From assembly GCA_052388375.1 (NCBI GenBank), contig JBQTIG010000038.1, positions 927 through 64,926 on the forward strand: 64,000 nt of DNA. Direction: 5' to 3'. Positions 3,361 to 63,973 of the stretch are shown one piece after another. This DNA is from Planctomycetaceae bacterium. GTDB taxonomy: Bacteria > Planctomycetota > PLA2. The position numbers were made by a program, and so were the translations under genes. The notes beneath the pieces are model-generated. The model did not search any database, was not told the origin of the DNA, and saw nothing but the letters and a program-made list of their open reading frames with translations. Each line of letters starts with the position of its first letter. Position 1 is the stretch's first letter.

Positions 3361-3363
3361 CCG

Positions 3364-3882: not shown

Positions 3883-4580
3883 GATCGATCCTCATCGTCC
3901 CGCTCGTCCTCGCCTGGGTCGTGCTCTGCGCGTCGGTTGCGCTCCTCCTATGGCCCCTCTCCCGCTGGACGAGGTTCGGCGACGCCTGCGCGCGCTGGAT
4001 GGGGCGGGGCGTGCTCTTCCTCGGAGGGGTGCGCCGGCGCGTGATCTGCGGCGAACAGATGCGGGGAGGGCCCCGCGTCATCGTTGCGAATCACGCCTCG
4101 ATGCTCGACATCTGCGCGCTGTTCGCCACCCTGCCCCCGCCTTTCCGCTTCGTGTCGCGACCGTTCTACTTCTTCGTGCCGCTCCTCGGGTGGGCGATGT
4201 TCGTCCAGGGCCACCTCGCTCTCGACCCGTTGCGCCCGCGCAAGGCCGCCGCGGCCTTCGCCCGCATGGCGGACCGGCTGCGCCGCGGGATCAGCCTTGC
4301 GCTCTTCCCCGAAGGGGCGCGCAGCCCGGACGGGGCGGTGCATCGCTACAAGCGCGGGCCGTTCCTCGTGGCCATCGAGAACGGCGTGCCGATCCTCCCG
4401 GTGCGCCTGCGCGGGGCCTATCGCGCGCTGCCCCGCGGGACGTGGCGCATCCGCGCCGGGGAGATCACGGTGGAGTGCGGCGAGCCGATCCCCACGGCCG
4501 GATTGTCGCGGGAAGAGGCGCGCGAGCTGGCGGCGCGGGTGGAGGCGTGGACGCAGGGGGAGGGGGGCGGGGAGGAGTGA
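3879..4580 (+). CDS. plsC: 1-acyl-sn-glycerol-3-phosphate acyltransferase (LPLAT/PlsC family)
   Basis: It has an N-terminal TM helix, an HX4D-type motif (VANHASMLD) and an FPEGARS motif. The GTG start at 3879 overlaps the upstream stop. Confidence 0.75.
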   Translation: MRSILIVPLVLAWVVLCASVALLLWPLSRWTRFGDACARWMGRGVLFLGGVRRRVICGEQMRGGPRVIVANHASMLDICALFATLPPPFRFVSRPFYFFVPLLGWAMFVQGHLALDPLRPRKAAAAFARMADRLRRGISLALFPEGARSPDGAVHRYKRGPFLVAIENGVPILPVRLRGAYRALPRGTWRIRAGEITVECGEPIPTAGLSREEARELAARVEAWTQGEGGGEE

Positions 4581-5333: not shown

Positions 5334-5398
5334 TTGAGCCTCCCCCGCCCGGGGGGCCCGGGCTCAGGGGGAGGGGGGGCGAGGGCCGATAGGGGAGC

Positions 5399-42797: not shown

Positions 42798-44169
42798 GGA
42801 ACGCCTCCTCGCGCCGGAGCGCCTCCGCGCACGCCTTGGGGCCGGGAAGCACTTTGCCGGGATTGAGGATGCGGCGCGGGTCGAAGGCGGCGCGCACGCG
42901 CTCCATCGCCTTGAGGGAGGCCGTGTCGAAGAGGAGCGGCATGAGATCGCGCTTTTCGACGCCGATGCCGTGCTCGCCGGTGAGCGAGCCGCCGGCGCGC
43001 AGGCAGATCTCGGCGATCTCTTTCCCGGCCGCTTCGACGTTTTCGGCCTCGTCGCGCCGGTGGGCGAGGAGCGGGTGCAGGTTGCCGTCGCCGGCATGGA
43101 AGACATGGACGAGCGTGAGGCCGCGACGCTCCGCCGCCGCGTCGATGGCGCCGACCGCCTCGCCCATGCGGGAGCGCGGCACCACGCAGTCCATCACGGT
43201 GCACTCCTCCGCGAGCCGACCCATGGCGCCGAACGCCCCCTTGCGCCCTTTCCAGAAGCGCCTCCGTTCCGCTTCGTCTTTCGCGCGGCGCAGAGGCCAG
43301 CGCGCGGCGATCCACTGGAACGCCTCCTCCACCTCTTCGGGGAACCCCTCCAGCTCCGCGAGAAGCACCGCCCCGGCGTCGCGCGGATAGCCGGCGGCGA
43401 AGACCGAATCCTCCACCGCCGCCACCGCGCGCCGGTCGAGGACCTCGAGCGCGGCCGGCAGGAGCCCTTCGCCGAGGATCTCCTGCACCGCGTCGCAGGC
43501 CTCCTGCATCCGCGCGAAGGGCAGGAGCAGCGTGGCGGTCGCCGCCGGGAGCGGGAGGAGGCGGAGCGTCGCCTCGGTGACGATGCCCAGGGTGCCTTCG
43601 CTCCCGATGAGGAGGGAGAGGACGCACTCGTCGTCGGTCTCGTGGACCGTTCCCTCCGCATCGATCAGCGTGATCGCGGCGACGTGGTCGGTCATGGTGC
43701 CGTGGCGCAAGCAGTGCGGCCCCCCCGACCCGCAGGCGACGTTGCCGCCGATCGTGCAGGCGGGTTGGCTCGAGGGGTCGGGCGCGAAAAAGAGGCCGTG
43801 GGGGGCGGCGGCTTCGCTCACGCGCAAATTGACGACACCCGCCTGGACCCGCGCGGTGCGCGAGGGAGGATCGAGGGCGAGGATGCGGTCCATCTTGGCC
43901 AGATCGAGGAGGACGCCGCCCGCGCAGGGGCGCGCCCCCCCGGCCAGGCCGGTCCCCGCACCGCGCGCCACGATGGGGATGCCCGCGCGCGCCAGCACGC
44001 GCACGCAGGCCGCCACTTCGCCGGTGTCGAGAGGGTAGGCCACCGCGTCGGGCAGTTCCCGATAGAGCCGCAGGCCGTCGCACTCGTGCACGAGAAGCGT
44101 CGCGCGGTCGTCGCGCACCCGGTCCGCGGGCAGGACGCGACGCAACAGCTTGGCGGCCGCGACGCTCAC
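42784..44169 (-). CDS. glcD: Glycolate oxidase subunit GlcD (FAD-linked oxidase)
   Basis: It has the FAD-binding PCMH domain (GAGTGLAGGA) and a C-terminal oxidase domain (GHAGDGNLHP, GEHGIG). Its GTG start overlaps the upstream stop as GTGA. Confidence 0.85.
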   Translation of the reverse strand: MSVAAAKLLRRVLPADRVRDDRATLLVHECDGLRLYRELPDAVAYPLDTGEVAACVRVLARAGIPIVARGAGTGLAGGARPCAGGVLLDLAKMDRILALDPPSRTARVQAGVVNLRVSEAAAPHGLFFAPDPSSQPACTIGGNVACGSGGPHCLRHGTMTDHVAAITLIDAEGTVHETDDECVLSLLIGSEGTLGIVTEATLRLLPLPAATATLLLPFARMQEACDAVQEILGEGLLPAALEVLDRRAVAAVEDSVFAAGYPRDAGAVLLAELEGFPEEVEEAFQWIAARWPLRRAKDEAERRRFWKGRKGAFGAMGRLAEECTVMDCVVPRSRMGEAVGAIDAAAERRGLTLVHVFHAGDGNLHPLLAHRRDEAENVEAAGKEIAEICLRAGGSLTGEHGIGVEKRDLMPLLFDTASLKAMERVRAAFDPRRILNPGKVLPGPKACAEALRREEAFRVVS

Positions 44170-46616
44170 CGCGACGCCTCGGACGCGGTCCAGGCGGGCC
44201 ACAAGACGCCCGCCATGCGGCGCGGGATCTCGGCGCCCTTTTCGCCCGCCGCCCGCAGCAGGCGCGCGTGGGCGAGATCGAGGAAGCGGGTGTCGGCCTC
44301 CATGCCCGACTGCGCGCAGGCGAGCAGCGTGAGCGCATCGAGCCAGGCGAGTCGCAGCGCGCCGGCGCGGCAGCGCTTCTCCAGGGCGTCGAGGAGCGCG
44401 CCGAGCTGCGGTTCGGGAATCCCCTTGCCGGGATCTTCCGGTCCCAGAATGCCCGCGATCAGCCCCGCGATGAGCTTCTCGGAGGCGCGCCCCTCCTCGA
44501 TCTCGCCGCGATAGTGCTCCGCGAACTCCACGGGCCGCACTTCGCGCCGCCCGAGATAGAGCCGCTGGTGGTCGCGGCGCAGGGCGCGCACCCGATCGGG
44601 ATCGCGGAACGCGAGTGCGAGCCAGGCTCCATACTGCCGCCAAATCGGCCGCTCCTCGCGCTCGCCGAAGGCCTCCATCGCGGCGGCGCATAGCCGCGCC
44701 GCATCCGGCCCCACCCGCAGATCGGCGCGAAGGCTTCCCGCCACCGGGCTGAGCCGCAACGCCAAGGCGGTGCCTGCGACGCGCGCGTAGCCATCCTTGC
44801 GTTGCAGAAGCGCCATCACCCCCGTGCCGTCCCCCTGGGCGAGAAGTGTCTGCGCCGCGAGGACGGCGACGGCGAGGGATCGTTCGGCGCACAGGCGGTA
44901 GGCGGCCGCGAGATTCGCTTCGTTCCCCTCGCGGGTCGCGGCCACGAGCACGCGCTCCAGCGCCTCCACGCGCAGCAGCTCCGCATGCTCCAGGAGAGTC
45001 TGCAGGGGAAGCGCGCGCCCGCGCTCGGCCCAGGGCAGGAGCTCCGCGAGCGTCTCGGGCGTGCGGGCGTGGAGCGCCGCGAGCCGTTCCGCCGGTTCCG
45101 AGCCCATGCGCGCGAGGAAGCGCACGAGGTCGCGCCGCTCCTCCTCCTCCTGCGTGCGCGCCAGCCGCGCGGCGACGAGATCCAGCACGTGGCCCAGGGT
45201 CGCCCCGCGCGCCGGCACCGGCTCGGAGCCGTCCTCGGGCAACGCCGCAACCAGCTCGATCTCCTCTTCGCGCGAACCGAAGAAGGTCACGGCAAGGCGC
45301 TCCAGCCGGAGCGGGCGGCGCAGGAGGCGGTTGTCGCGTCCCGCCGAACCGGGGGAGGGGCCCACGAAATCGGGGTAGTCCTGGGAGCGCGAGGGGAGGA
45401 GGACGCCGAGGAAGAGCTTTCCTCCCGCGCCGTCCTCCGTCGTGCAGGACCAGAAGAGCGGCAGATCGAGGCGCACCACCCGGGCGACCATCGGCGTCGC
45501 CTCCGGCGTCGCCCGCTGGAGGAGGACGTGGAGGAGCCGGAAGCGGCGGGCGTCCGCGGTCGTTTCCGGCGCGGGCATGGCGACGTCGCGCGACGCCGCG
45601 AACTCCGCGAGCGGGCGGGGCGGCTCGCCGTGGCCGGCGGCCAGCAGCAGTTCGCAGGTCTCCCGGAGCGGCGGGAGCGGCGCCAGGCGATCGAGCACGA
45701 GATCCATGAGGAGGCGCCTCTCGCGCGCGGGGAGCGCGGGCTCGCAGAGCAGCTCGAGGAGCAGCGGGGGCGCGCCGGCCACGAAGGCGGCGTCCTCGCG
45801 TCCCTGGGCGTCGACGCTGCGCGAGAGCGCCAAGAGCCCCTCGCCGTCGAGGGACCGCCGGCGGTAGGCGCGCAGGAGCGGGGCGCGGGCGTGCACGCCC
45901 CCCGCGAGGGGAGCCAATTGCGCCTGGGAGTCGTCGTCGAGCAGGGCCGGGAGGCAGAGGATGGAGGCCCCCTCGGCGAGAGAGTCATGGGCGGCCGGAT
46001 CCGCGCGGGTGCGGCGGTCGAGGGCGAGCAGCGAGGGAAGGAGCCTTTCACGGACGAGCCAGGCGGTGCGCGCATCGGGGCGCACCCGGCCCTCCAGCAC
46101 CTGGACGCAGCGCACCGCCTCGAGGAAGAAGCGCAACCGCACCGCGTCGGTCAGGGCCGGAGCGTCGAGCGCCGAGGCCGCGTGGGCCAGGAGGAGGTTG
46201 AGCGTTCCCGAGCCGACCGGTTGGGGCGCGCGGTAGGCGCCTTGGAGCGCGGCGAGCCCTTCCAGCGCCGCGCGGTGCTCGTCGCGCAGGCCGAGGCCCG
46301 ACTCCGGGCCGCGCAGCGGCGGCAGTTCGAGCGCAGGCTCCAGCACACCGACGAAGAGCTCGGCGAGCGGGAGCAGCCTGCCACCGGTTTCGACCAGGAC
46401 ACAGGGCGCGTCCACGAACCGGCGCGCCCGCTCGATTTCCTCGAGGGCCGCCTCCATCCTGCGCCGCTCTTCGGGTCCCGCGTCAGGCCAGCGCCGAAGC
46501 ATCTCCGCCTCCTCGGCGCGGCCGCCGCGGTAGGGACCGGCCACGAGGGGGGCCGCGAGGAAAACGAGGAAGAGCGCGAGGCGCCGCACGTTCCCCCACT
46601 CTACGCCTTCAGGCAT
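44166..46616 (-). CDS. Large (816 aa) secreted alpha-helical protein of unknown function
   Basis: It has a signal peptide (LALFLVFLAAPLVAG), uniformly high GC3 and is leucine/arginine-rich and helical. It is coupled upstream to the GT2 gene and downstream to glcD. Confidence 0.55.
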   Translation of the reverse strand: MPEGVEWGNVRRLALFLVFLAAPLVAGPYRGGRAEEAEMLRRWPDAGPEERRRMEAALEEIERARRFVDAPCVLVETGGRLLPLAELFVGVLEPALELPPLRGPESGLGLRDEHRAALEGLAALQGAYRAPQPVGSGTLNLLLAHAASALDAPALTDAVRLRFFLEAVRCVQVLEGRVRPDARTAWLVRERLLPSLLALDRRTRADPAAHDSLAEGASILCLPALLDDDSQAQLAPLAGGVHARAPLLRAYRRRSLDGEGLLALSRSVDAQGREDAAFVAGAPPLLLELLCEPALPARERRLLMDLVLDRLAPLPPLRETCELLLAAGHGEPPRPLAEFAASRDVAMPAPETTADARRFRLLHVLLQRATPEATPMVARVVRLDLPLFWSCTTEDGAGGKLFLGVLLPSRSQDYPDFVGPSPGSAGRDNRLLRRPLRLERLAVTFFGSREEEIELVAALPEDGSEPVPARGATLGHVLDLVAARLARTQEEEERRDLVRFLARMGSEPAERLAALHARTPETLAELLPWAERGRALPLQTLLEHAELLRVEALERVLVAATREGNEANLAAAYRLCAERSLAVAVLAAQTLLAQGDGTGVMALLQRKDGYARVAGTALALRLSPVAGSLRADLRVGPDAARLCAAAMEAFGEREERPIWRQYGAWLALAFRDPDRVRALRRDHQRLYLGRREVRPVEFAEHYRGEIEEGRASEKLIAGLIAGILGPEDPGKGIPEPQLGALLDALEKRCRAGALRLAWLDALTLLACAQSGMEADTRFLDLAHARLLRAAGEKGAEIPRRMAGVLWPAWTASEASR

Positions 46617-47718: not shown

Positions 47719-48888
47719 GTGACGAGTCGCGCCCTCGCTCCCTTCGGAACCTCCGTCTTCACCGTCATGTCCGCACTGGCGCGCAGCCATGGCGCCGTCA
47801 ACCTCGCCCAGGGGTTTCCAGACTTCGACGGGCCCTCCTGGCTCTACGACGCGGCCATGGATGCCATGCGGCGCGGCATCAACCAGTACTCCATCAGCCA
47901 TGGGGCGACGGCGCTGCGCCGGGCCATCGCGGAGGACGTCGAGCGGCTCTACGGCATTGCCTACGACGCGGAGCGCGAGATCACCGTCACCTGCGGCGCG
48001 ACCGAAGGGATCGCGGCGGCGATTCTCGGACTCCTCGACCCCGGCGACGAGCTGCTCACGTTCGAACCCTTCTACGACTCCTACGCGGCCTGCGCGGCGC
48101 TGGCCGGCGCGCGGCTTCGCGCGGTCCCCCTGCGCCCCCCCCACTTCGCCTTCGACGAGCGCGAATTGGAGGCGGCCTTCGGCCCCCGCACGAGGCTGTT
48201 CCTGCTCAACACGCCGCACAACCCCACCGGCAAGGTCTTCCGCGAAGCGGAGTGCGCGGTGCTCCTCGATCTTTGCAGACGGAACGACTGCCTCCTCGTG
48301 GCGGACGAGGTCTACGAGCACCTCACCTTCGAGGGCGCGCGCCACATCTCCCCCGCCGCCCTCGACCGAGAACGGGTCCTGCGCCTCGGGAGCGCCTCCA
48401 AGACCTTTTCGGTGACCGGCTGGAAGATCGGATGGGCCTGCGGACCCGAGGCGGCCACCGAGGGGGTGCGGCGCGCGCATCAATTCCTCACGTTCTGCGC
48501 CGCCTCGCCGCTCCAGGAGGCGGTGGCGCAGGCGCTGCGCGAGGCGCCCGGGCGCGGGTACTACGAGACGTTCCGCGCCGACTACGCGCTGCGCCGCGCC
48601 GCGGTTCTGGAGGCCCTGGCCAGCGCGGGCCTGCGCGCCTTCCCCCCCGACGGCACCTACTTCGTGATGGCCGACTACCGCGCCCTCAGCGACGAGGGGG
48701 ATACCGCGTTCGCGCAAAGGCTCGTGCGCGAACGCGGGGTCGCCGCCATACCCCCCCGCTCGTTCTACGAGCACCCCGAGCATGGCCGCCACCTCCTGCG
48801 CTTCGCGTTCTGCAAGTCGGTGGAGACTCTCCGGGAGGCGGGGCAGCGGCTGGCGGGCGGGGCGGGGCATGCGATTCCTGGATCTTGA
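47719..48888 (+). CDS. Class I/II PLP-dependent aminotransferase (kynurenine/methionine aminotransferase-like)
   Basis: The N-terminus (FGTSVFTVMSALA) is typical. The PLP lysine region is SASKTFSVTGWKIG and an NPTG motif is present. Confidence 0.85.
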   Translation: MTSRALAPFGTSVFTVMSALARSHGAVNLAQGFPDFDGPSWLYDAAMDAMRRGINQYSISHGATALRRAIAEDVERLYGIAYDAEREITVTCGATEGIAAAILGLLDPGDELLTFEPFYDSYAACAALAGARLRAVPLRPPHFAFDERELEAAFGPRTRLFLLNTPHNPTGKVFREAECAVLLDLCRRNDCLLVADEVYEHLTFEGARHISPAALDRERVLRLGSASKTFSVTGWKIGWACGPEAATEGVRRAHQFLTFCAASPLQEAVAQALREAPGRGYYETFRADYALRRAAVLEALASAGLRAFPPDGTYFVMADYRALSDEGDTAFAQRLVRERGVAAIPPRSFYEHPEHGRHLLRFAFCKSVETLREAGQRLAGGAGHAIPGS

Positions 48889-48928
48889 GAACCATTCTCA
48901 TAAACTCCCGGGCATGGCCTCCCCTCCC

Positions 48929-49135
48929 ATGACCCGCTGCGAGTGCGCCGCCCTCGCCTTCAAGGAGGTGGCGCTCATTGCGGAGCGGGAGGGGTTGGGC
49001 GAGTTCGAACTGCTCTGCGCCCGGAGCGGTTGCGCCGTCACCTGCACCGCCTGCAAGCCCGACCTGCGCGCGTTTCTCCAGGCGCGCGCCGCCGGCGCCG
49101 CCCGCCTTGGCGCGGCGCGTATCATGGCGTCATGA
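48929..49135 (+). CDS. bfd: Bacterioferritin-associated ferredoxin (BFD-like [2Fe-2S] domain)
   Basis: The 2Fe-2S ligands are C-x-C ... C-x-x-C (MTRCECAAL ... CAVTCTAC). Its stop overlaps the bfr start as ATGA. It could alternatively start at ATG 48914. Confidence 0.65.
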   Translation: MTRCECAALAFKEVALIAEREGLGEFELLCARSGCAVTCTACKPDLRAFLQARAAGAARLGAARIMAS

Positions 49136-49617
49136 AGGGCAACCCCGAAGTCATCGACGTCCTCGGCGAGGTCTTGTGCGCCGAGTTGACCGCCATCAAC
49201 CAGTACTTCATCCACGCCAAGATGTGCGCGGACTGGGGCTACCACGCGCTGGCCACCTACGGTCGCGCCGAGTCCATCGACGAGATGAAGCACGCCGAGA
49301 TAGTCATCGAGCGCATCCTCTTCCTCGAGGGCGTGCCCAACATGCAGAAGTACATGAAGGTGAAGGTGGGCAAGACGGTTCCGGAGCAGTTCCAGAACGA
49401 CGTCGAGCTTGAGTACGGCGCGGTGGAACGGCTCAACCGCGGCATCGCGATCTGCGTGGAGAAGAAGGACAACACCACGCGGGAGCTGCTCGAGACCATC
49501 CTCGCCGAGGAGGAGCACCACATCGACTGGCTCGAGACCCAGCTCCATCTCGTGAAGACGATCGGGGTCGAGCGCTACCTGTCCATGAAGCTCGGGGAGG
49601 AGAAGGCCGGACACTAG
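49132..49617 (+). CDS. bfr: Bacterioferritin
   Basis: MKGNPEVIDVLGEVLCAELTAINQYFIHAKM has the ferroxidase Glu/His ligands and the heme-axial Met. It is 161 aa. Confidence 0.9.
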   Translation: MKGNPEVIDVLGEVLCAELTAINQYFIHAKMCADWGYHALATYGRAESIDEMKHAEIVIERILFLEGVPNMQKYMKVKVGKTVPEQFQNDVELEYGAVERLNRGIAICVEKKDNTTRELLETILAEEEHHIDWLETQLHLVKTIGVERYLSMKLGEEKAGH

Positions 49618-49785: not shown

Positions 49786-51300
49786 GTGCTCCGCGCCGCC
49801 GCGCTCCTGGCCCTCGCGCTGCTCGCCCGCGCGGAGGGCTGGCCCTTCGGCGGCGAGGGGATGCTGGGGCGGCGCGATCTCTACAACCTGGGGCCGCTGG
49901 GCCTCAAGGCTTCCGACGCCGACGGCCCGCCCCCCGATCCCTCCGGCCCGCCCCAGGGGCGCCGCAGCGTGCGGATCGATCCCGGCGCGGGGGATGACTA
50001 TCCCGCGCGACTCAAGGTCGAACTGCTCTTCCCGGATGGCCCGGCGGCGCAGGCGGGGCTCGCGCCGGGAGACATCCTCACCGGCGCGGAGGGGGCGCGG
50101 TTCCAGGACGGTGTCGCCGACGCCGTTGCGAAGGTGATTCTCCGTGCCCAGGCGGGGAAGGGGCTCGTCACGCTCCCGGTGGTCCCCGCCGCCGGCGGCG
50201 AGCCGCGCAAGGTGCGCGTGACGATTCCGGCGCTCGGCAAGGAGGCGCTGGATCCGACTCGCGGCGGCGCGCGGGGCCGAGCCGTGGAGGAGGCGCTCGC
50301 CTGGCTGGCCGGAAAGCAACTCGAGACCGGCGGGTTCGCCGAAACGCTCTCGGGGCATAACGGCGCCGTCGTGCTCACCGCCATGGCGGGACTCGCGTGG
50401 TCGGGGGCGGGGGGTGGGCTCTCCAAGGGACCCTACGGTGAGAATCTGCGCCGCCCCGCGGCGTTTCTCTGCGAGTCCGTCAAGACCCTCTCCGGCGGCA
50501 CGGCCGCGCAGAAGGCACAGGGAGCGGTCCTCAACCAGTGCAACTGGGGCTGCGAGCACGCCGGGCTCTTCCTGGGCGAACTCCAGGCGCATACCCCCGA
50601 CGACGCGGTGAAGGAGGCGCGCTTCTTCTGCGGGAGGCGGCTCCTGGAGACGCAGGAGAGTTCGGGTGGCTGGGCGCACGGGCCCGGCGGCCCGAACCCC
50701 CTCGGCTACGTGGAGCTCAACATCGTGCCCGGCCTCGCCCTCGGCGCGCTCGGGATGGCGAAGCAGGCGGGCATCGAGGTCGCTCCCCAGGCCCTGGAGA
50801 GAGCGATCGCCTATCTGAAAGCGAGCGGCGGCGACGACGGGGGCGTCGGCTACTCCACCGAGCCCGGACAGAAGGGCATCGGCAACATCGGCCGCACCGC
50901 GGCCGCCTGGCTCGCCCAGGAGTGCCTCGGCCTCGGCCGAGAGGCGGGGGCGAAGAAGGCCGGCAAGCATGTCGAGGCCCATGCGAGCGAGATGTTCGGC
51001 GGCCATGCGAGCCTGATGCAGCACTTCCTCCTCGCCGGAGTGGCGGCGCAGACGCTGGGCGGGGAGGCGCGCAAGCGCTACTGGAGCGTGGCCCAGCGCG
51101 AGCTGCTCCTGGCGCGCGCGCCGGACGGCTCGTTCCAGCCGCGGCCCTGGCACGAGAGCCTGGCCATGCAGAGCAACAGCGACGTCTCCTTCGGCGAGGT
51201 CTGGACGACCGCGGCTTGGACCGTGGTCCTCCTCGCCGACGCCGGACCGAAGGACGCGCACCGCGGCTTCCCCGCCTGGACCGGGCATCCGGGCAGGTGA
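49786..51300 (+). CDS. Secreted PDZ-domain + prenyltransferase/squalene-oxidase-repeat (alpha/alpha toroid) protein
   Basis: It has a GTG start, a signal peptide, a PDZ domain (GLAPGDILTGAEG) and then QxxxGGW-type repeats (LETQESSGGWAHG, KQLETGGFAE). Confidence 0.65.
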   Translation: MLRAAALLALALLARAEGWPFGGEGMLGRRDLYNLGPLGLKASDADGPPPDPSGPPQGRRSVRIDPGAGDDYPARLKVELLFPDGPAAQAGLAPGDILTGAEGARFQDGVADAVAKVILRAQAGKGLVTLPVVPAAGGEPRKVRVTIPALGKEALDPTRGGARGRAVEEALAWLAGKQLETGGFAETLSGHNGAVVLTAMAGLAWSGAGGGLSKGPYGENLRRPAAFLCESVKTLSGGTAAQKAQGAVLNQCNWGCEHAGLFLGELQAHTPDDAVKEARFFCGRRLLETQESSGGWAHGPGGPNPLGYVELNIVPGLALGALGMAKQAGIEVAPQALERAIAYLKASGGDDGGVGYSTEPGQKGIGNIGRTAAAWLAQECLGLGREAGAKKAGKHVEAHASEMFGGHASLMQHFLLAGVAAQTLGGEARKRYWSVAQRELLLARAPDGSFQPRPWHESLAMQSNSDVSFGEVWTTAAWTVVLLADAGPKDAHRGFPAWTGHPGR

Positions 51301-51496
51301 GGCCGCCTACTTCGATTCCTGCGCCTCAGGCAGGATGTCGAGGCCGTTGGGCAGCACGAGGTCGAGACCGCCGTCCTGCGCGCGCACCAGGAAACGGCGC
51401 ACGCGGTCGCCCGCGGTGAGATAGGTTACCCGCGACTTTCCGGTACAGACTACGGCGCGGGCACGTCGAAAAGTGCCCCCGCGAGGGCAGCGCGGG

Positions 51497-51829
51497 TTAG
51501 CCCCTGGTAGAGGATCCCGACGCCTCCTTCGCACGATGAGCCAACACATGATTGACCAGCCGACGAATGGTCGCGTCCGTTGTGCGAAGGCGGACTGTCG
51601 CGCGGAATCGCTTCAGGCCTAGGTTGAGGAGCAGGCGCCCGAGGCACTCGTCGGCAAAGCTCGGGGTGATGGCTTCGATCCCCTCAAAATCCACCAGGAT
51701 CTTCTCACGCCCTCCAAGGCGCCCGACGGCTTCGACCAGTCGCTTGCGAACCATGGCCCCCTGATCGCGGGTGAGGAGGGAGTCGCCCCACGTCACCAGC
51801 CTGATCGGATGCTCACTAGTCGCCACCAA
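51497..51829 (-). CDS. STAS-like domain protein (DUF4325-type anti-sigma antagonist-like)
   Basis: KILVDFEGIEAITPSFADECLGRLL is the DUF4325 pattern. It overlaps the GHKL gene end by 14 nt. Confidence 0.55.
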   Translation of the reverse strand: MVATSEHPIRLVTWGDSLLTRDQGAMVRKRLVEAVGRLGGREKILVDFEGIEAITPSFADECLGRLLLNLGLKRFRATVRLRTTDATIRRLVNHVLAHRAKEASGSSTRG

Positions 51830-53162
51830 AGAAATCCTCCATTTCGAATCCCTGAGGGGCGGGCAGCGAAGCGTACACGTCGCTCATGGGAAGCAGATTC
51901 TCAAGATCGAAGAGAATCGCCACAATCGTACCCTTCCATGCTTTGTGGGATACGGTTTCGGTCCGCCGTCTCCCCATCTTCCGGAACGCGCAAAGGCTCT
52001 TCTCCCCTGAAGTCAGCAGAAAAGTGCCGCCGTTTCGCACGGCGATCTCGCTCACGACGTACAGCCCGTAGCCGGCATGGCCCGGATCGTCGCCGATCCG
52101 TACCGGCCGGCTCGTCACGAGGGGTAGCGTCGCCAGCCTCAGCGGGTCTTCCCCGGCTCGGATTCGGTCTTTTGCGACGCTATTGGTTCCCGCGAGAAAG
52201 CTCAAGTGGATGCCGAAACCCGTATCGACGACTGTTGCGGTCAGTTTCTTCCGCGCCGGGTAGTACTGTGCCGACACGAGCGCCGTCCGCTCGATCCCTG
52301 CATGCCGCTGAACGTTTTCGATGAGTTCCGCAAAGGCCACGAGGAGCGCATTGTGATCCGCCTTGCCGACGAATCCCCGCCGGTCGCAGATGCCGACGAT
52401 CTCCGCGGCAAGGAGATCCGCGCTCGATGCTCTGTCTATCGGAGCGATCGCGACCCGCCAGCCGCCGTCGGCACCCCGGTCCACGTAGAGCTTTCCCTCG
52501 AGCACGTCGTGGAAGCCGATGCGCTGGAGGTAATGCTCCGTCGCGGCGGAGGCACCCTCCAGTTGCGGACGCACGGATCGCTCGATACACCAAGCAGCAA
52601 GGAGGGTCAGCCCCGTCACGTACAGGTGATCCACGTCCGTCAGGTCCAACACGAGCCCGCCGGACGCATCCACCTCCGCCAAGGCGTCCACCAAGACCCG
52701 GATGCCATTGAGGCTTGTGGACTGAGTGGTCAGACCGATACGCGCTGGAGCCTTGCGCTTGCGCACGGAGACCTCCAGAGACTTCGGCGTCTTGGATCCT
52801 CGCAAGACTTCGTCCCCCTCTTCGATAGGGGTCGCACGGCTAGCGAACGGACTTGAACTTCCGCCCTTCATCGCCTGGAGAACCGCGGCACGCAGGTTCT
52901 TGGGGCAGCGTCCCTGACGCGCGATGCTCTTGACGACCACGCGATTCCACCGGTCGTCGCGCATCGCAAGGGATCCGAGGAGGGGAGGGATCGTGCGAAT
53001 CGCGATCGCCGTCGGATGTGATCTCAGGATCTCGAACAGCCGCGCCGCAGCCGGCGCAACGGGGAGAGCCAGGAACTCCGTGGCGAGACTGGGGGGGATC
53101 GGGCCGGCCATTCGTTCATCGAGGAGATCCTGCACGAGCGCGTCAAGGTCGCGGGAAGTCAT
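51816..53162 (-). CDS. GHKL-family ATPase (RsbW/SpoIIAB-like serine kinase fold) with about 280-aa N-terminal extension containing a second STAS-like segment
   Basis: The C-terminus has an N box (FAELIENVQRHAG), G1 (VVDTGFGI) and G2 (GYGLYVV). The mid-region IRVLVDALAEVDASGGLVLDLTDVDHLYVTGLTLL is STAS-like. Confidence 0.6.
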   Translation of the reverse strand: MTSRDLDALVQDLLDERMAGPIPPSLATEFLALPVAPAAARLFEILRSHPTAIAIRTIPPLLGSLAMRDDRWNRVVVKSIARQGRCPKNLRAAVLQAMKGGSSSPFASRATPIEEGDEVLRGSKTPKSLEVSVRKRKAPARIGLTTQSTSLNGIRVLVDALAEVDASGGLVLDLTDVDHLYVTGLTLLAAWCIERSVRPQLEGASAATEHYLQRIGFHDVLEGKLYVDRGADGGWRVAIAPIDRASSADLLAAEIVGICDRRGFVGKADHNALLVAFAELIENVQRHAGIERTALVSAQYYPARKKLTATVVDTGFGIHLSFLAGTNSVAKDRIRAGEDPLRLATLPLVTSRPVRIGDDPGHAGYGLYVVSEIAVRNGGTFLLTSGEKSLCAFRKMGRRRTETVSHKAWKGTIVAILFDLENLLPMSDVYASLPAPQGFEMEDFFGGD

Positions 53163-53421
53163 CGAGACACGCGGATTATAGCGCAATGGCGTTCGCGGGC
53201 TGCGCGGAGAACATTCGCAACATCGCCTATCACGGGTTCTCGTTCGCGCGCAGCGCCTGTGGCCTTGGCCGGGCCCGGCACCAAGCTGCAACCAGCCTCA
53301 GGGGAGGGGCAACGAGGTGGAGCGTCGATCGTCGGCCGCGAGGGAGCTGCCGCGGAGCGATGGCTGGACAGCGGAACAAGCGGTCTGCGCAAGCGGAGGA
53401 TCGCCAACGCGCGCACCTCGG

Positions 53422-55017
53422 TCAGTCGCTGCCCAGGGGCTTGGGCTTGCGGATGTCGACGCAACTGCCGCCGTTCTGCTCGGCCAGAGCGCGCATGAAG
53501 TCGGCCATCTCGTCGGGGTCCTCGTACTTGTCCGCCTTCTCGATGGCGGGCCGCCCCATGACCAGCGCGATGCAGTGGATGATGACCCGTCGGAAACGGT
53601 TGCAAGCGCGCACCTTCGCCAGGATCTCCTCCGGCACGATGGTCCGCCCGGTGGAGGGCATCCCGTCGCTCAGGAAGTAGATCGTGTCCACCAGCGGGTT
53701 GTCTTCGAAGGCCTGCATCAAGGTGTCGTGGGTGTTGGTGCCGCCCCGCGGCAGGAGCTGCGCCTCGCTCCAGGAGAGCGCGTCCGCCACGTTCTTCGGC
53801 GAGGCGACCACCTCCCCCTTCTTCTGCCAAATGCTCGGCGCCCCGGCGAAGGTCATGACATTGAAGTAGGTCTTCTCGTCGAGGCTGCGGATCGCCTTGT
53901 AGAGCTCCTTCCGAGCCGTTTCGATGCGGTTGGGGTGGTACTCGGGCCAGGCCATCGAGCCGGAGACGTCCACGATGAAGAGCACGCGGTCGGAGAGGAT
54001 CTTGAAATCGAAGAAGCTGGCCACGCTGATGCTCTCGCCCGCGGCGAGCTTGCCCTCCTCGGTGAGGCGGCCCGTCTCCTTGTCGCGCCACCATTTCTCC
54101 CAGACCTCAGGGGCGTAGCGGAAGTCCTGCCCGCTGATTGCCTTGAGCGCGCCGTAGGCCTTCTCCTTCGCGCGCAGGTTGCCCTCCCGCAGGAGCAGCG
54201 TCAATTCGGGGAAGAGCGCCTCGGCCTTTCGTGCGCCCGCAGCGACCGCCGCCGCCTCGCGCACGATGGGCACCTCGTCCTGGAACAGGGCGCGCATCGC
54301 ATCGAGGAGATCGGGGGCGCTTCCCAGGCCGAGGAGCACGTCGGCGGCGGCGAGGCGCAGCCTCCAGTCCGCGGAACCCGCAGCGGCGCGCAGCAGCGCC
54401 TCCGCGCCCGGCCCGCCGATCCGCCCCAGGGCGACGTGGATCTCGAAGAGAAGCGCCATGTCGGGTCGCTCGCGCTTGAGCGCCCGGGCGAGCAGCGCGG
54501 TGAGCGGCTCGCTGGCCTCCTTCGTGCCGAGCACGCCGAGCGCCTGCACGCAGCCGAGCTGGATCTCGTCCACAGGGCTCGAGAGGAGCTTCTCCACGAG
54601 CCACGGGCCCACCTGCGGGTCGGAGGAGAGCGCGAGGGCGCCGCCGACGTAGGATGCGAGCACGGTCCGGGACTCCCGTTGGACGGTCGCCACCATGCGC
54701 TTGACCGCGGCCAGATCCCCGATGCCGCCGATCGAGACCATGGCGTTGATGCGCGCACGGATGTCGGCGTCCTGGTCGAGGATCGCCTGCAGGCGCTTGC
54801 AGGTCTCTTCGTGGCGCACGCCGGCCAGTTCGCGGGCGATCTCGCGGCGCCGGCGCCGTTGCCTCACGTCCTGGTTGCGGGCCAGATCCTGGTACTCCGC
54901 CCACAACTCCTCCAGGCGCTCGTTCGCCGCGCGCGGGTCGGGGGCGCCTTCCTCCTCGGCGGAGAGCAAGGCGGGCGCGAGCATCAGGAGCAGGCTGGCC
55001 GCGACGCGGGCGCGCAT
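53422..55017 (-). CDS. Secreted HEAT-repeat + VWA domain protein (paralog 2)
   Basis: It has a signal peptide, HEAT repeats, a GQDFRYAPEVWEKWW motif and a VWA domain with a DxSxS MIDAS (FIVDVSGSMAW). It shares architecture with 21150-23363. Confidence 0.8.
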   Translation of the reverse strand: MRARVAASLLLMLAPALLSAEEEGAPDPRAANERLEELWAEYQDLARNQDVRQRRRRREIARELAGVRHEETCKRLQAILDQDADIRARINAMVSIGGIGDLAAVKRMVATVQRESRTVLASYVGGALALSSDPQVGPWLVEKLLSSPVDEIQLGCVQALGVLGTKEASEPLTALLARALKRERPDMALLFEIHVALGRIGGPGAEALLRAAAGSADWRLRLAAADVLLGLGSAPDLLDAMRALFQDEVPIVREAAAVAAGARKAEALFPELTLLLREGNLRAKEKAYGALKAISGQDFRYAPEVWEKWWRDKETGRLTEEGKLAAGESISVASFFDFKILSDRVLFIVDVSGSMAWPEYHPNRIETARKELYKAIRSLDEKTYFNVMTFAGAPSIWQKKGEVVASPKNVADALSWSEAQLLPRGGTNTHDTLMQAFEDNPLVDTIYFLSDGMPSTGRTIVPEEILAKVRACNRFRRVIIHCIALVMGRPAIEKADKYEDPDEMADFMRALAEQNGGSCVDIRKPKPLGSD

Positions 55018-61515: not shown

Positions 61516-62571
61516 TCAGGCGCGGGCGGACGACGGCGCCCGGAGATGCGCCCGGATATCGGGGCAGTACTTCACCTTCCAGATGCGTGCGTCCACGACG
61601 AAGTGCACCCCCGTCATCGTGTAGGCCAAAGGGACGAGCAGATCGACCCGCTGCAACCCGACCACGATCGCACCGTAGATGATGCCCGTTGCGAAGTAGA
61701 GCCAGCGCCAGCGCTTCTGCACGAGCCGGCTCGTGACGGGGTTCTCGGGGGAGAATCCTTCGGCGTACTTGTTGCGGTTGTAGAGCCAGGTGATCGCAAT
61801 GTACTGGGTGGCGTGGAACGAGGTGATCGCGACGAGGATCACGATCAACTCCGTGGCCAGGGCTGCCGCGGCCAGGACGAGACCGGAGGCCATGACGATG
61901 ACCAGGCACTTCTGCCACGCGATCTCCCCGAATCGCCAGTGGCGGTAGATCTCGCGGAACGCCATGGCAAGAAAGCCCACGGCCACCACGCCCATGACCG
62001 CCATCGCCCAGGGGACCGGCACGTGAGGCGTCAGGAGCCTGCGATCCACCTCGCCGAGATCCTGGAGCCGGAAGATGTAGAGGACGGGGGAGAAGATCCC
62101 GCCGAAGAGGCAGAAGTTGTCGATCCAGGTGTCCCACGCTCCCAGGCTTGAGGCGGGACGCCTCCGGTCGTAGAGCTTCACGAATCCGTAGTGCTGCTTG
62201 GCTTGGTGCCAGGCGGACGCGTAGAGGATGAGCGACAGGGCGTAGCCCATGCCCAGCAGCGCGGCCCCGGTGAAGGTGAGGAAGACGACGACCGCGGTGA
62301 GGACGTAGAAGCGGCGCGCGCGCCCGAATTCGGTCCGGTCGAGGTAGGTCCGGGTGAAGGTGTGGAAGACATGGACCTGGTCGAGGCAGATGGAGATCAG
62401 GGCGCAGAGGAGGAGCGTGGCGTAGGCGGGGATGAGCGCGCGCACGCCCAGCACGAGGAAGCCCAGCAGCCCGCTCCCAATGAAAAACGTCAGGTCGAAC
62501 CGAGGACCGACGATCCAGGGGGAGGGGGCTTGGCGCGCGGCGGCGGGGGCGGCGCAGGTGGCGGTGGTCAT
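61516..62571 (-). CDS. Polytopic membrane protein of unknown function
   Basis: It has about 9 TM helices from Met 62571. The upstream 117 codons of the ORF are low-complexity. Confidence 0.5.
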   Translation of the reverse strand: MTTATCAAPAAARQAPSPWIVGPRFDLTFFIGSGLLGFLVLGVRALIPAYATLLLCALISICLDQVHVFHTFTRTYLDRTEFGRARRFYVLTAVVVFLTFTGAALLGMGYALSLILYASAWHQAKQHYGFVKLYDRRRPASSLGAWDTWIDNFCLFGGIFSPVLYIFRLQDLGEVDRRLLTPHVPVPWAMAVMGVVAVGFLAMAFREIYRHWRFGEIAWQKCLVIVMASGLVLAAAALATELIVILVAITSFHATQYIAITWLYNRNKYAEGFSPENPVTSRLVQKRWRWLYFATGIIYGAIVVGLQRVDLLVPLAYTMTGVHFVVDARIWKVKYCPDIRAHLRAPSSARA

Positions 62572-62641
62572 TCCAGCGTGGCGTAAGGATAAGGGCGGCC
62601 GGGGACCTTGGCAACGAGGGCTTGCGCCCCGCCCCCCTTCC

Positions 62642-63973
62642 ATGATTCCCTTTCCGCCCATGGCGTCTCTCCGGATCGTCGTCTTTCTCCTCGCCGCCGC
62701 CGCGGCCGCCGCGTCGGAGGAGGACCTGGCGACCGAGAACGCCCGGCTGCGGGGAGAGCTCGCGACGTTGAAGGGGGCGGATCCGGATGCCGCCACACGG
62801 CGGGTGATCGAGCAGTACCTCGAGGATTCCCGGCCGGCGGGGGGCGCGCAAGCGGCGACCTGCGGCTTCGACCACGGCTTCTTCCTCGCCGCCGCCGACG
62901 GGCTCCACCTCCTGCGTTTCAACCTCGTCGCGCAGTTCGGCTGGTTCGCCAGCCGCGACTACAGCGACACGCACAGCCAGGCGCAGTCGGTGTTCGAGCT
63001 GGAGTCGCTCCGGCTGCGCCTCTCGGGGCACGCCTTCACCGAGCGTCTCACCTTCTTCGTGGACCTCGAATTGGCCCCGGCGGCGCGCCGCTTCCAAACG
63101 ACCGCCGACACGATCTCGGAGGGGTACTTCGTCTACCACCGCCGCCCCTGGGAGCACCTCCGCTTCAAGGGGGGGCGCTTCCGCCCCCGGTTCACCTCCG
63201 GGGAGGAGGCGGCGGACCACGCGCTGATGTTCGCCGCCCGCAGCCTGGTGAACGAGTTCTTCACGGTCGGGCGGACCGAGGGCATCGCCATCGTGGTGGA
63301 GAACCTGCGCGGAGGCCGCTCCGCCGTGGAGCTTGCCATCACGAACGGCTCCGAGCGCTTCAACCCCGACGCCCCCGTGATCGCGGACGACTCCCGCGCG
63401 GTCGTGAGCTTTCGCTGGGCGCGCACCCTGATCGGCGAGGGGGTGCCCTGGACCCACGCGGCGTTCGAGGGCGATCCGGGACAGAGCGCGGAGCCGGTCC
63501 TCGTGCTGGGGATAGGAGTGCACTTCGAGGACACGGTGATCGGGTCCATGGCGCAGGTTCAGTACAGGCAGATGACCGTCGACCTGATGTGGCGCCGGGA
63601 GGGGATGTGGGCCACCCTCAATCTATTCGGGCGCTTCCATAAGGAGGGGCTCGCAGGTGGGGGCGGGGAGGACTTCGGCGCCCATGCCGCCTTCGCGCGG
63701 TACCTGGTTCCCGGGCGCATCGCCCTCGCCTTTCGCGCCGGCTGGATCGAGTATGCCGCCGTCTCGGGCGGAGGCAGCGATCTCCTCGAGGCCACCTTCA
63801 GCTTCATCTTTTCTTGGCGCGACGAGGCTGGGAGCGTGCCCGGAGACCGGCTGAAGGTGAACCTCGACCTGGGATACGTCCAGAACGTGGCCCTGGGCTC
63901 GATGACCGCCGAGTTGCCCGCTGGATTCGTACAGGGGCTGGTCTTTCGCGCCCTGCTGACGGTCATCTTCTGA
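62642..63973 (+). CDS. Outer-membrane porin (phosphate-selective OprO/OprP-like)
   Basis: A signal peptide and coiled-coil N-terminus are followed by amphipathic beta strands that end in a terminal Phe (LLTVIF). Confidence 0.5.
   Translation: MIPFPPMASLRIVVFLLAAAAAAASEEDLATENARLRGELATLKGADPDAATRRVIEQYLEDSRPAGGAQAATCGFDHGFFLAAADGLHLLRFNLVAQFGWFASRDYSDTHSQAQSVFELESLRLRLSGHAFTERLTFFVDLELAPAARRFQTTADTISEGYFVYHRRPWEHLRFKGGRFRPRFTSGEEAADHALMFAARSLVNEFFTVGRTEGIAIVVENLRGGRSAVELAITNGSERFNPDAPVIADDSRAVVSFRWARTLIGEGVPWTHAAFEGDPGQSAEPVLVLGIGVHFEDTVIGSMAQVQYRQMTVDLMWRREGMWATLNLFGRFHKEGLAGGGGEDFGAHAAFARYLVPGRIALAFRAGWIEYAAVSGGGSDLLEATFSFIFSWRDEAGSVPGDRLKVNLDLGYVQNVALGSMTAELPAGFVQGLVFRALLTVIF

What the first reader, a model, noticed from the sequence alone, without database searches (positions are those of the whole stretch)
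51497..55017. Partner-switching-like module (STAS-GHKL fusion + DUF4325 STAS) downstream of a secreted HEAT-VWA protein
The minus-strand run is HEAT-VWA paralog 2, a 260-nt gap, a 448-aa protein and a DUF4325 STAS protein that overlaps the preceding gene by 14 nt. The 448-aa protein has an RsbW/SpoIIAB-type GHKL kinase fold at its C-terminus and an embedded STAS-like segment. The roughly 200 N-terminal residues have no obvious family. Kinase-antagonist pairs normally sit with a sigma factor or phosphatase, and here neither is adjacent. The window does hold a sigma-28 and an ECF sigma elsewhere.
Basis: partly seen in the sequence, partly recalled or inferred. Interest (0 to 1): 0.65.

Follow-up and report, generated by a model that had tools for sequence, protein, structure and literature searches.

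The report
Stand-alone CapK/CapS-like kinase–STAS switch
The two small minus-strand genes are a self-contained, probably horizontally acquired kinase-plus-substrate switch related to the DNA-damage-sensing CapK/CapS and VapK/VapS immune regulators described in 2026. This version lacks both known outputs and is unrelated to the HEAT-VWA gene beside it.

Summary
Window 51497-53162 (minus strand) encodes a 448-aa protein ("K") and an overlapping 109/110-aa DUF4325 STAS protein ("S"). K consists of a helical N-domain, a linker, a STAS domain and a GHKL domain.

The link to the HEAT-VWA gene does not hold. In 13 Planctomycetota loci only K and S are conserved together. No HEAT-VWA gene, sigma factor or phosphatase recurs. 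The pair's GC3 (0.74-0.75) lies 3.5-3.9 SD below the window's other ORFs, HEAT-VWA included (0.93). The pair's GC is 6-15 points below its flanks in 12 of 12 loci.

The closest known systems are CapK/CapS and VapK/VapS/VapC (Chambers et al., EMBO J 2026). There, an ssDNA-activated STAS-GHKL kinase phosphorylates a conserved Ser on a STAS protein. K matches the kinase of a canonical vapKSC operon (hhalign 97.8%, E 1e-12). S's only significant PDB match is Escherichia VapS. The ATP-binding boxes and a TPSF acceptor motif are invariant.

It differs in three ways: a HEAT/VHS-like N-domain replaces CapK's HTH, S has no wHTH domain, and there is no VapC gene. Similar two-gene pairs occur on a phage and a plasmid. 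Fused K-S proteins also exist.

Verdict: a new variant of a known kind, with the output unknown.

The parts
51816..53162 (-). K gene: 448-aa CapK/VapK-family STAS-GHKL protein kinase (NCBI ACT4PV_05735)
   Evidence: ORF and NCBI call. hhalign to the K of a canonical vapKSC operon: 97.8%, E 1e-12. phrog_3364 E 1.7e-17. N-terminal part of PADLOC DrmA profile PDLC02567, E 1.2e-9.
52863..53162 (-). K residues 1-100: six-helix alpha-solenoid (HEAT/VHS-like) N-terminal domain with a conserved [KR]GRCP motif; specific to the Planctomycetota subfamily
   Evidence: AF2 domain model pLDDT 91, pTM 0.83. Best Foldseek PDB matches are VHS, alphaRep/HEAT and TOG domains, E >= 0.3, TMq <= 0.58, and no HTH. 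R85, C86 and P87 are nearly invariant.
52758..52862 (-). K residues about 101-135: low-confidence, poorly conserved linker
   Evidence: pLDDT below 50 at 101-128. Gappy alignment region.
52440..52751 (-). K residues about 138-241: cis STAS domain (motif DHxYVxGLxxLAAW)
   Evidence: Pfam STAS_2 0.025 and STAS 0.031. beta-alpha-beta pattern in the AF2 model. G184, L185 and W191 invariant, Y181 nearly invariant. His179 sits in the column of the family's aromatic residue.
51903..52421 (-). K residues 248-420: GHKL (Bergerat-fold) kinase/ATPase domain with N box (N283), G1 (D313, G315, G317), G2 (G364, G366) and a basic RKK patch after QYYP
   Evidence: Invariant columns. Pfam HATPase_c 3.6e-4. Foldseek hits to GHKL domains. 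Family-wide alignment.
51819..51902 (-). K residues 421-448: conserved C-terminal tail VYxSLPxPxGxxxEDFF, shared with a Deinococcus VapK-like protein (...EEDLF)
51497..51826 (-). S gene: 109-aa single-domain STAS protein (DUF4325), CapS/VapS-like, with invariant T54-P55-S56-F57-x-D59-E60. An alternative TTG start lies at 51829.
   Evidence: Pfam DUF4325 5.4e-9, above the gathering score. Only significant PDB match is Escherichia VapS 9z7o, E 2e-4. hhalign to Deinococcus VapS-like 92.6%. Invariant motif.
51816..51840 (-). K/S junction: GGAGGA Shine-Dalgarno (51835-51840) inside the end of K, S start codons TTG 51829 / GTG 51826, K stop TAG 51816-51818. This suggests translational coupling.
   Evidence: Read directly from the sequence. 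4-nt ATGA overlaps in L001 and L003.
53163..53421 (-). 259-nt intergenic region upstream of K; it holds a perfect TATAAT at 53175-53180, 13-18 nt before the ATG. Possible own promoter, not shown.
   Evidence: Sequence. The consensus scan found no full sigma-70 promoter. No upstream element is conserved among orthologous loci.
53422..55017 (-). HEAT-VWA gene: adjacent neighbour, NOT part of the module
   Evidence: Absent from all 12 related loci compared. GC3 0.93 against 0.74-0.75 for the pair.

Best explanation
Window 51497-53162 is a self-contained two-gene phospho-switch of the CapK/CapS-VapK/VapS family. K is a Ser/Thr kinase built from a cis STAS domain and a GHKL domain. S is its small STAS-domain substrate, translated in a coupled fashion from the overlapping downstream gene.

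Proposed mechanism, inferred by homology. A signal bound at the STAS/GHKL interface of K switches the kinase on. In CapK that signal is single-stranded DNA from DNA damage or phage infection. K then phosphorylates S on the invariant TPSF motif, most likely Ser56. This changes what S binds.

This Planctomycetota subfamily differs from the two characterised forms in three ways. S has no DNA-binding wHTH domain. There is no VapC toxin gene. K carries a HEAT/VHS-like helical-repeat domain instead of CapK's HTH. The output is therefore either a partner encoded elsewhere, perhaps recruited through K's N-domain or bound by unphosphorylated S, or K's own kinase activity on host targets with S acting as a decoy or antitoxin.

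The cassette is compositionally foreign and unrelated to the neighbouring HEAT-VWA gene.

Shown here: domain composition, intact catalytic motifs, homology to VapK/VapS-type proteins, strict K-S synteny, lack of any conserved third gene, and atypical composition.

Inferred: kinase activity on S, the activating ligand, and the output.
For: Homology.
- The K profile against the 300-aa K of a canonical K-S-PIN operon on Deinococcus gobiensis plasmid P5 gives hhalign 97.8%, E 1e-12, over 219 columns.
- The S profile has one significant PDB match, 'Escherichia VapS' 9z7o (E 2e-4), and matches Deinococcus VapS-like at 92.6%.
- S passes Pfam DUF4325. The PIN.4 clade is known to be coupled to DUF4325 genes (PMC5499597).

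Catalytic and acceptor features.
- The N box Asn283 (the equivalent, CapK N218, is essential) and the G1 and G2 boxes are invariant.
- T54, P55, S56, F57, D59 and E60 are invariant in 16 S proteins.
- A basic patch follows QYYP, and the C-terminal acidic-aromatic tail is shared with VapK-like proteins.

Linkage.
- S immediately follows K in every related locus.
- Natural K-S fusions exist: P0082, P0087, P0099, P0145 and P0062, and phrog_5816.
- One PADLOC DrmA profile matches K and then S at its N-terminus.

Independence from neighbours.
- Only K and S are shared by the 13 loci.
- Neighbours are housekeeping genes that differ between loci.
- GC3 z-scores are -3.5 and -3.9.
- The pair's GC is 6-15 points below its flanks in 12 of 12 loci.

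Mobile-element presence of minimal K+S pairs.
- Bacteroides phage BF1-TP2 and Pseudomonas conjugative plasmid pBYT1-1 carry them.
- A Francisella prophage has a DUF4325 gene after a 293-aa ORF.
- K matches phrog_3364 at E 2e-17.

Mechanism of the characterised relatives: PMC13373217.
Against: - No biochemical data exist for this subfamily.
- The column holding the ssDNA-stacking aromatic residue (CapK W68, VapK F54, Deinococcus W53) is His179 here. A Tyr lies two residues later, so the ligand may differ.
- In HMM and hhalign alignments VapS Ser48 falls opposite Pro55, one residue away from Ser56 and Thr54, so the acceptor residue is not pinned down.
- Foldseek's best solved-structure matches for K are GyrB, Topo II and MutL ATPase domains at weak E-values (about 1e-3), not SpoIIAB or RsbW.
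- Pfam kinase-type HATPase_c_2 is below threshold.
- No effector or output can be named.
- The window context is not a defence island.
Confidence: 0.72

Rival explanations
1. Classic partner-switching module. K acts as an RsbW/SpoIIAB-like anti-sigma factor that sequesters an unlinked sigma factor, such as the window's sigma-28 or an ECF sigma. S acts as the anti-anti-sigma antagonist.
For: The domain logic is the same (GHKL kinase plus STAS with a phosphorylatable Ser). There are weak hits to the anti-sigma antagonist model TIGR00377 (0.06) and to RsfB 8ih8 (0.42). ECF sigma genes lie 8-10 kb away in L001 and L003. An output encoded elsewhere is needed in any case.
Against: No sigma factor or PP2C phosphatase is conserved near the pair in 13 loci or within about 8 kb in the window. 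Planctomycetota carry many ECF sigmas, so distant ones are expected by chance (established knowledge). The family is compositionally foreign and occurs on phages and plasmids. Its characterised members act on a repressor or a toxin, not on sigma factors (PMC13373217).
Confidence: 0.1
2. K is not a protein kinase. It is a GyrB/MutL/MORC-like GHKL ATPase acting on nucleic acid, with S as an adaptor or regulatory subunit.
For: Foldseek's best PDB and viral matches are topoisomerase II, GyrB and MutL ATPase domains. K has a long ATP lid of about 45 residues between G1 and G2. The family is linked to DNA-related systems through the DrmA fusion.
Against: Those matches are weak (E >= 1e-3, TM about 0.2) and cover only the generic Bergerat fold. 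There is no transducer domain. K is clearly homologous to VapK-type proteins, and the related CapK is an experimentally shown kinase. The invariant Ser/Thr motif on S argues for a phospho-acceptor.
Confidence: 0.1
3. Functional three-gene operon with HEAT-VWA: the secreted HEAT-VWA protein is regulated by, or signals to, the K-S pair.
For: The genes are on the same strand and adjacent, 259 nt apart. K's N-domain is itself HEAT/VHS-like.
Against: HEAT-VWA is absent from all related loci. Its GC3 is 0.93 against 0.74-0.75 for the pair. The upstream neighbours elsewhere are unrelated genes: TyrRS, RecQ, trypsin-like protease, dihydrolipoyl dehydrogenase. HEAT-VWA carries a signal peptide, whereas K and S are cytoplasmic.
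Confidence: 0.03
4. Decayed remnant of a capKS or vapKSC locus that lost its output gene and no longer functions.
For: No output domain or gene is present. The K gene appears split in L012 and L014.
Against: Intact pairs with invariant catalytic and acceptor motifs persist across Planctomycetia and Phycisphaerae at only 30-50% identity, which implies purifying selection. The same minimal architecture recurs on a phage and a plasmid. The splits may be assembly indels.
Confidence: 0.05

Closest known systems
VapK/VapS of the vapKSC toxin-antitoxin/anti-phage system (Chambers et al., EMBO J 2026, PMC13373217; VapS-VapC structure PDB 9z7o)
   Same: K has the STAS-GHKL core. A small STAS (DUF4325) protein is encoded immediately downstream. 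S carries a conserved Ser/Thr at the start of STAS helix 2. K has a conserved C-terminal acidic-aromatic tail. Profile-level homology holds for both proteins.
   Different: There is no vapC/PIN gene in the window or in any of 13 loci. S lacks a conserved C-terminal inhibitory helix; its tail of about 8-10 residues is unconserved. K has an extra 100-aa helical-repeat N-domain. The acceptor motif is TPSFxDE rather than xSxF. The aromatic ssDNA-contact column holds His.
CapK/CapS transcriptional regulators of immune operons (same paper)
   Same: K has a three-part build: an N-terminal accessory domain, then STAS, then GHKL. The gene order is K then S. The catalytic Asn is conserved, and so is the acceptor Ser near position 54-56 of S.
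   Different: CapK's N-domain is an HTH, whereas here it is a HEAT/VHS-like alpha-solenoid. CapS has a C-terminal wHTH and represses a downstream immune operon. Here S is STAS only, and what follows it is a convergent housekeeping-type gene (DUF6288-PDZ protein).
SpoIIAB/SpoIIAA and RsbW/RsbV (or RsbT/RsbS) partner-switching pairs
   Same: A GHKL Ser kinase phosphorylates a single-domain STAS protein. S56 aligns with SpoIIAA Ser58 when counted from the conserved Gly seven residues downstream (my reading of the sequence together with established knowledge).
   Different: No linked sigma factor or PP2C phosphatase. K carries its own cis STAS domain. Sequence similarity to these families is below every curated threshold.
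Stand-alone K+S pairs on mobile elements (Bacteroides phage BF1-TP2 gp43/gp42; Pseudomonas plasmid pBYT1-1; phrog_3364/phrog_5816) and K-S fusions, including the N-terminus of a PADLOC DrmA (DISARM) profile
   Same: These have the same minimal two-component logic without wHTH or PIN. Their S proteins share the SFxDE motif with the window's S.
   Different: They lack the N-terminal helical domain. They are uncharacterised, being annotated only as 'ATP-binding protein' and 'STAS-like/DUF4325'. The Planctomycetota copies are chromosomal, among housekeeping genes.

Membership tests
CapK/VapK-type kinase with CapS/VapS-type STAS substrate (broad K-S family, PMC13373217) | K contains a STAS domain followed by a GHKL domain in one chain | tested here: met
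   Pfam weak hits. AF2 model. hhalign 97.8% to the K of a vapKSC operon. Family alignment.
CapK/VapK-type kinase with CapS/VapS-type STAS substrate (broad K-S family, PMC13373217) | The S (STAS/DUF4325) gene immediately follows K | tested here: met
   Found in the window and all related loci. The genes overlap by 11-14 nt here.
CapK/VapK-type kinase with CapS/VapS-type STAS substrate (broad K-S family, PMC13373217) | Absolutely conserved Ser/Thr on STAS helix 2 of S | tested here: met
   T54 and S56 are invariant in 16 sequences. The register relative to VapS S48 is off by one.
CapK/VapK-type kinase with CapS/VapS-type STAS substrate (broad K-S family, PMC13373217) | Conserved GHKL catalytic Asn (CapK N218) and ATP-binding G boxes | tested here: met
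   N283, D313, G315, G317, G364 and G366 are invariant.
CapK/VapK-type kinase with CapS/VapS-type STAS substrate (broad K-S family, PMC13373217) | Conserved aromatic residue in the K STAS domain that stacks on ssDNA (CapK W68 / VapK F54) | tested here: inconclusive
   The family's aromatic column (Deinococcus W53; F/Y/W in most members) holds His179 in this subfamily. Y181 is nearly invariant two residues later and W191 is invariant.
CapK/VapK-type kinase with CapS/VapS-type STAS substrate (broad K-S family, PMC13373217) | K phosphorylates S when activated by ssDNA or DNA damage | not testable with these tools
   Needs a kinase assay or AF3 complex modelling.
capKS (strict sense) | N-terminal HTH on K | tested here: not met
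   The N-domain is a six-helix alpha-solenoid. Its best matches are VHS, HEAT and TOG domains.
capKS (strict sense) | S carries a C-terminal wHTH DNA-binding domain | tested here: not met
   S is 109 aa. The STAS domain spans about residues 13-98, followed by a short unconserved tail.
capKS (strict sense) | Followed by an immune operon (Bub, CBASS, Thoeris and others) | tested here: not met
   Downstream lies a convergent DUF6288-PDZ gene. There is no PADLOC hit apart from the DrmA N-terminal match of K and S themselves.
vapKSC (strict sense) | A VapC-like PIN toxin gene downstream of S | tested here: not met
   No such ORF exists in the window, and there is no third conserved gene in 13 loci.
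vapKSC (strict sense) | S has a C-terminal helix that blocks the toxin active site (VapS residues 94-116) | tested here: not met
   The tail after the VNxVLAxR helix is about 8-12 residues long and unconserved.
Anti-sigma kinase / anti-anti-sigma partner switching (RsbW-RsbV, SpoIIAB-SpoIIAA) | Genetic linkage to the regulated sigma factor and/or a PP2C phosphatase | tested here: not met
   No conserved neighbour in 13 loci. None within about 8 kb in the window.
Anti-sigma kinase / anti-anti-sigma partner switching (RsbW-RsbV, SpoIIAB-SpoIIAA) | Match to curated family models (Pfam HATPase_c_2; TIGR00377 antagonist) | tested here: not met
   HATPase_c_2 scores 19.1 bits against a cut-off of 27.4. 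TIGR00377 scores 13.2 against 53.45, and that match is on K's cis STAS, not on S.
Pfam DUF4325 (STAS-like) | Score above Pfam's gathering threshold | tested here: met
   36.1 bits against 23.
DISARM DrmA | Helicase core of DrmA | tested here: not met
   K and S match only positions 25-243 and 323-395 of the 1750-position profile PDLC02567. There is no helicase here.

The most novel reading that the evidence does not exclude
Stand-alone K+S pairs may form a third, uncharacterised functional class of the CapK/VapK family. Members would be this Planctomycetota subfamily with its HEAT/VHS-like N-domain and the minimal versions on phages and plasmids. In this class the kinase itself would be the effector. 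S would act as a decoy substrate or antitoxin that is consumed on activation, after which K phosphorylates host targets to arrest growth. In the Planctomycetota version those targets might be recruited by the N-terminal solenoid. With His replacing the ssDNA-stacking aromatic residue, the activating ligand may not be ssDNA.
Probability: 0.2. Interest if true: 0.7.

Novelty: new variant of a known kind. Interest (0 to 1): 0.45.

Why it matters
The CapK/CapS-VapK/VapS switch was described only in 2026, and only in two wirings: a repressor and a PIN antitoxin.

This locus shows the same kinase-substrate core persisting without either output. It is conserved across two classes of Planctomycetota, consistently AT-shifted relative to its hosts, and carries a new protein-interaction-type N-domain. 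Together with the phage and plasmid two-gene pairs, the K-S fusions and the DrmA fusion, this suggests the module is a general, portable sensor cassette.

If so, the missing output is a concrete open question. It could be answered with simple assays: K toxicity with and without S, Phos-tag phosphorylation, and pull-downs.

It also corrects the annotation. The pair should not be read as a sigma-factor partner switch or as part of a HEAT-VWA operon.

Tried and rejected
- HEAT-VWA trio: rejected by synteny and composition.
- Linked sigma factor or phosphatase: all-against-all clustering of flanking ORFs from 13 loci found no conserved third gene. The only partial recurrences were TyrRS (3 loci, 2 lineages), ABC-F and RecQ (2 loci), all housekeeping genes.
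- Promoter and terminator: the consensus scan found no sigma-70 promoter. It found only intragenic terminator-like hairpins. The hairpin after S is not better than shuffled sequence (z -1.6). No upstream motif is conserved across loci.
- Mobile-element scars: no flanking direct or inverted repeats of note and no tRNA.
- Sequence search of PDB with the K profile: nothing significant.
- Foldseek of full K against PDB and BFVD: only generic GHKL matches.
- N-domain: the Foldseek PDB search gave only non-significant helical-repeat matches. The word-indexed search with the N-domain alignment found nothing.
- Literature: 'DUF4325' and 'STAS-like + ATPase + defense' gave only incidental mentions. The MADS/Hma idea was not supported by any hit.
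- Contigs of the fused K-S proteins were too short to show context, except for an MNT/HepT pair beside P0099.

Full report
**1. What is there**

The window is high-GC DNA (about 0.70). Its 448-aa protein is identical to NCBI 'MAG: hypothetical protein ACT4PV_05735 [Planctomycetaceae bacterium]'. The minus strand carries three genes in a row:

- **HEAT-VWA**, 53422-55017, 531 aa. Pfam HEAT_2 scores 1e-20 and VWA_3 scores 6e-11.
- **A 259-nt gap**, 53163-53421.
- **K**, 51816-53162, 448 aa.
- **S**, 51497-51826/51829, 109 or 110 aa depending on the start codon. It scores 36.1 bits against Pfam DUF4325, above the cut-off of 23.

**2. Anatomy of K**

The AlphaFold2 model was built on 11 homologues (pLDDT 79, pTM 0.74). 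It shows four regions:

- A six-helix domain at residues 1-98.
- A disordered linker, with pLDDT below 50 at 101-128.
- A beta-alpha-beta STAS-type domain at about 140-241.
- A GHKL domain at 248-420.

Pfam sees HATPase_c (3.6e-4), HATPase_c_2 (1.3e-3) and STAS_2/STAS (0.025/0.031), all below threshold. The Bergerat-fold signatures are nevertheless invariant across the family: N box FAELIENVxRHAG (N283), G1 DTGxGI and G2 GHAGYGLY. The ATP-binding machinery is therefore intact.

The N-domain was modelled alone (pLDDT 91). It is a small alpha-solenoid. Its best matches in PDB are VHS, alphaRep/HEAT and TOG domains, none significant (E >= 0.3, TMq <= 0.58). It is not an HTH. It carries a nearly invariant [KR]GRCP motif.

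**3. Synteny and composition**

Close homologues are rare: 11 in the word-indexed 5.8-billion-protein search. In the species-representative genome collection all 10 loci are Planctomycetota (Planctomycetaceae, Pirellulaceae, Thermoguttaceae, Phycisphaerae).

A DUF4325 gene directly follows K in every locus examined. All-against-all clustering of flanking ORFs from 13 loci found only K and S shared by all. HEAT-VWA, sigma factors and phosphatases do not recur. The neighbours are unrelated housekeeping genes such as TyrRS, ABC-F, RecQ, bacterioferritin, an aminotransferase and a nitrilase.

The composition of the pair is atypical:

| Measure | K | S | Comparison |
|---|---|---|---|
| GC3 | 0.751 | 0.736 | 38 other window ORFs: 0.893 ± 0.040; HEAT-VWA: 0.93 |
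| z-score | -3.5 | -3.9 | |

The pair's GC is also 6-15 points below its flanks in 12 of 12 loci.

The pair therefore behaves as an autonomous, compositionally foreign cassette.

**4. What it is related to**

A literature search found Chambers et al., EMBO J 2026 (PMC13373217). The paper describes two systems.

- **CapK/CapS.** CapK has HTH, STAS and GHKL domains and is activated by about 20 nt of ssDNA bound between the STAS and GHKL domains; W68 is essential. It phosphorylates Ser54 of CapS (STAS plus wHTH). This dissociates the CapS repressor dimer and de-represses a downstream immune operon.
- **VapKSC.** VapK (STAS-GHKL) is proposed to phosphorylate Ser48 of VapS, a STAS protein with a C-terminal helix. 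Phosphorylation would release the PIN toxin VapC.

Tests run here:

- The S alignment's only significant PDB sequence match is 'Escherichia VapS' 9z7o (E 2e-4).
- A VapS fragment led to a canonical K-S-PIN operon on Deinococcus gobiensis plasmid P5.
- The window's K profile matches that operon's K at hhalign 97.8%, E 1e-12, over 219 columns. The S profile matches its S at 92.6%.
- The two K proteins share even the C-terminal tail: VY..LP...EDFF against ...EEDLF.
- S has invariant T54-P55-S56-F57-x-D59-E60 at the STAS phospho-site.
- One PADLOC DrmA profile matches K at positions 25-243 and S at 323-395.
- Several representatives are single-chain K-S fusions.
- K matches phrog_3364 (E 2e-17). 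S matches the C-terminal end of the 441-position phrog_5816.

The exhaustive profile search found 4723 cluster representatives at E <= 1e-3 and 137 at E <= 1e-30. About 40 of the top 150 include the N-terminal domain.

**5. How it differs**

- S has no wHTH domain, and its tail of about 10 residues is unconserved.
- There is no PIN gene or any other third gene.
- K's N-domain is a helical repeat rather than an HTH.
- In a 37-sequence family alignment, the aromatic column (Deinococcus W53; F/Y/W in most members), probably corresponding to VapK F54 and CapK W68 although those two sequences were not in the alignment, holds His179 in this subfamily. A nearly invariant Tyr181 lies two residues later.
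- The acceptor motif is xSFxDE. This motif is shared with two-gene K+S pairs on Bacteroides phage BF1-TP2 and Pseudomonas plasmid pBYT1-1. VapS proteins have xSxF instead.

Minimal K+S pairs lacking both known outputs therefore form a recurring architecture of their own. The 2026 paper does not discuss it.

**6. Most likely mechanism**

Shown: homology, intact catalytic and acceptor motifs, obligatory K-S linkage, and natural K-S fusions.

Inferred by homology: K is a signal-activated Ser/Thr kinase that phosphorylates S, most likely on Ser56. Ser56 sits seven residues before the conserved Gly, as SpoIIAA Ser58 does. Phosphorylation would alter the binding behaviour of S. The signal may be ssDNA, because the basic R304-K306 patch after QYYP is retained. 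The His-for-aromatic change makes this uncertain.

The output is unknown. I rank the possibilities as follows:

- (a) S, or K's solenoid domain, engages a partner encoded elsewhere.
- (b) K itself is the effector and S is a decoy or antitoxin.
- (c) A classic sigma-factor partner switch.

Option (c) has no genomic support.

**7. Rivals**

- A non-kinase GHKL ATPase. Foldseek's weak best hits are GyrB, Topo II and MutL.
- A HEAT-VWA operon. This is refuted.
- A decayed remnant. This is unlikely, because the motifs stay invariant at 30-50% identity across two classes.

**8. Verdict**

The module is a kinase/STAS switch, but not a trio with HEAT-VWA and probably not sigma-directed. It is a new variant of a recently described kind. 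It is moderately interesting, because the output of stand-alone K-S pairs is an open and testable question.

Noticed in passing
window 51497-53162 and loci L003, L006-L015: The K+S pair is 6-15 GC points below its flanking DNA in all 12 loci compared, across hosts whose flanking GC ranges from 0.59 to 0.77. This is a consistent AT-shift, typical of mobile accessory genes.
   Followed up: partly
L012 7839-9167; L014 7950-9354: The K gene is split into two ORFs in these two MAG loci. This could be pseudogenisation or assembly indels.
   Followed up: no
L007 3026-4342, L009 9629-10948, L013 4697-5926; L012 5724-7739, L010 13529-15736: Tyrosyl-tRNA synthetase lies directly beside the pair in three loci from two lineages. 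RecQ lies directly upstream of K in L012 and about 4 kb downstream in L010. This could be chance or weak linkage.
   Followed up: partly
window 21150-23363 (+) and 53422-55017 (-): There are two VWA-containing paralogs in the window, 29% identical over 274 aa of the VWA region. Both have native codon composition.
   Followed up: partly
window 51468-51481 and 52019-52032: A 14-nt near-repeat, GAAAAGTGCC(C/G)CCG, occurs just after the S stop codon and again inside K. Inside K it is part of a terminator-like hairpin at 52045-52027. Its significance is unknown.
   Followed up: no
L001 (= L010 region) 2345-6406 and 18287-20044: The Pirellulaceae locus carries TA/defence-like genes within about 10 kb of the pair: a Polbeta nucleotidyltransferase, a PIN protein, and an AAA_15/AAA_21 ATPase with DUF3226. 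The fused K-S protein P0099 sits next to an MNT/HepT pair (L020).
   Followed up: no
L016 (Deinococcus gobiensis plasmid P5) 3527-5879: A canonical vapKSC-type operon (ATP-binding protein, STAS-like protein, PIN protein) is preceded by an HTH regulator gene and flanked by GIY-YIG nuclease genes.
   Followed up: partly
window 44166-46616 (-) and 62432-63973 (+): These are large ORFs (816 and 513 aa) with native GC3 and no Pfam match at 1e-5.
   Followed up: no
window 48782-49617 (+) and 49786-51300 (+): Pfam identifies a ferritin-like domain protein (bacterioferritin by my reading of the sequence) in the 48943-49617 ORF and a DUF6288 + PDZ protein at 49786-51300 that converges on the S gene. 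A short ORF just upstream (48782-49135) looks Bfd-like by eye from its translation but was not scanned. All have ordinary host composition.
   Followed up: partly
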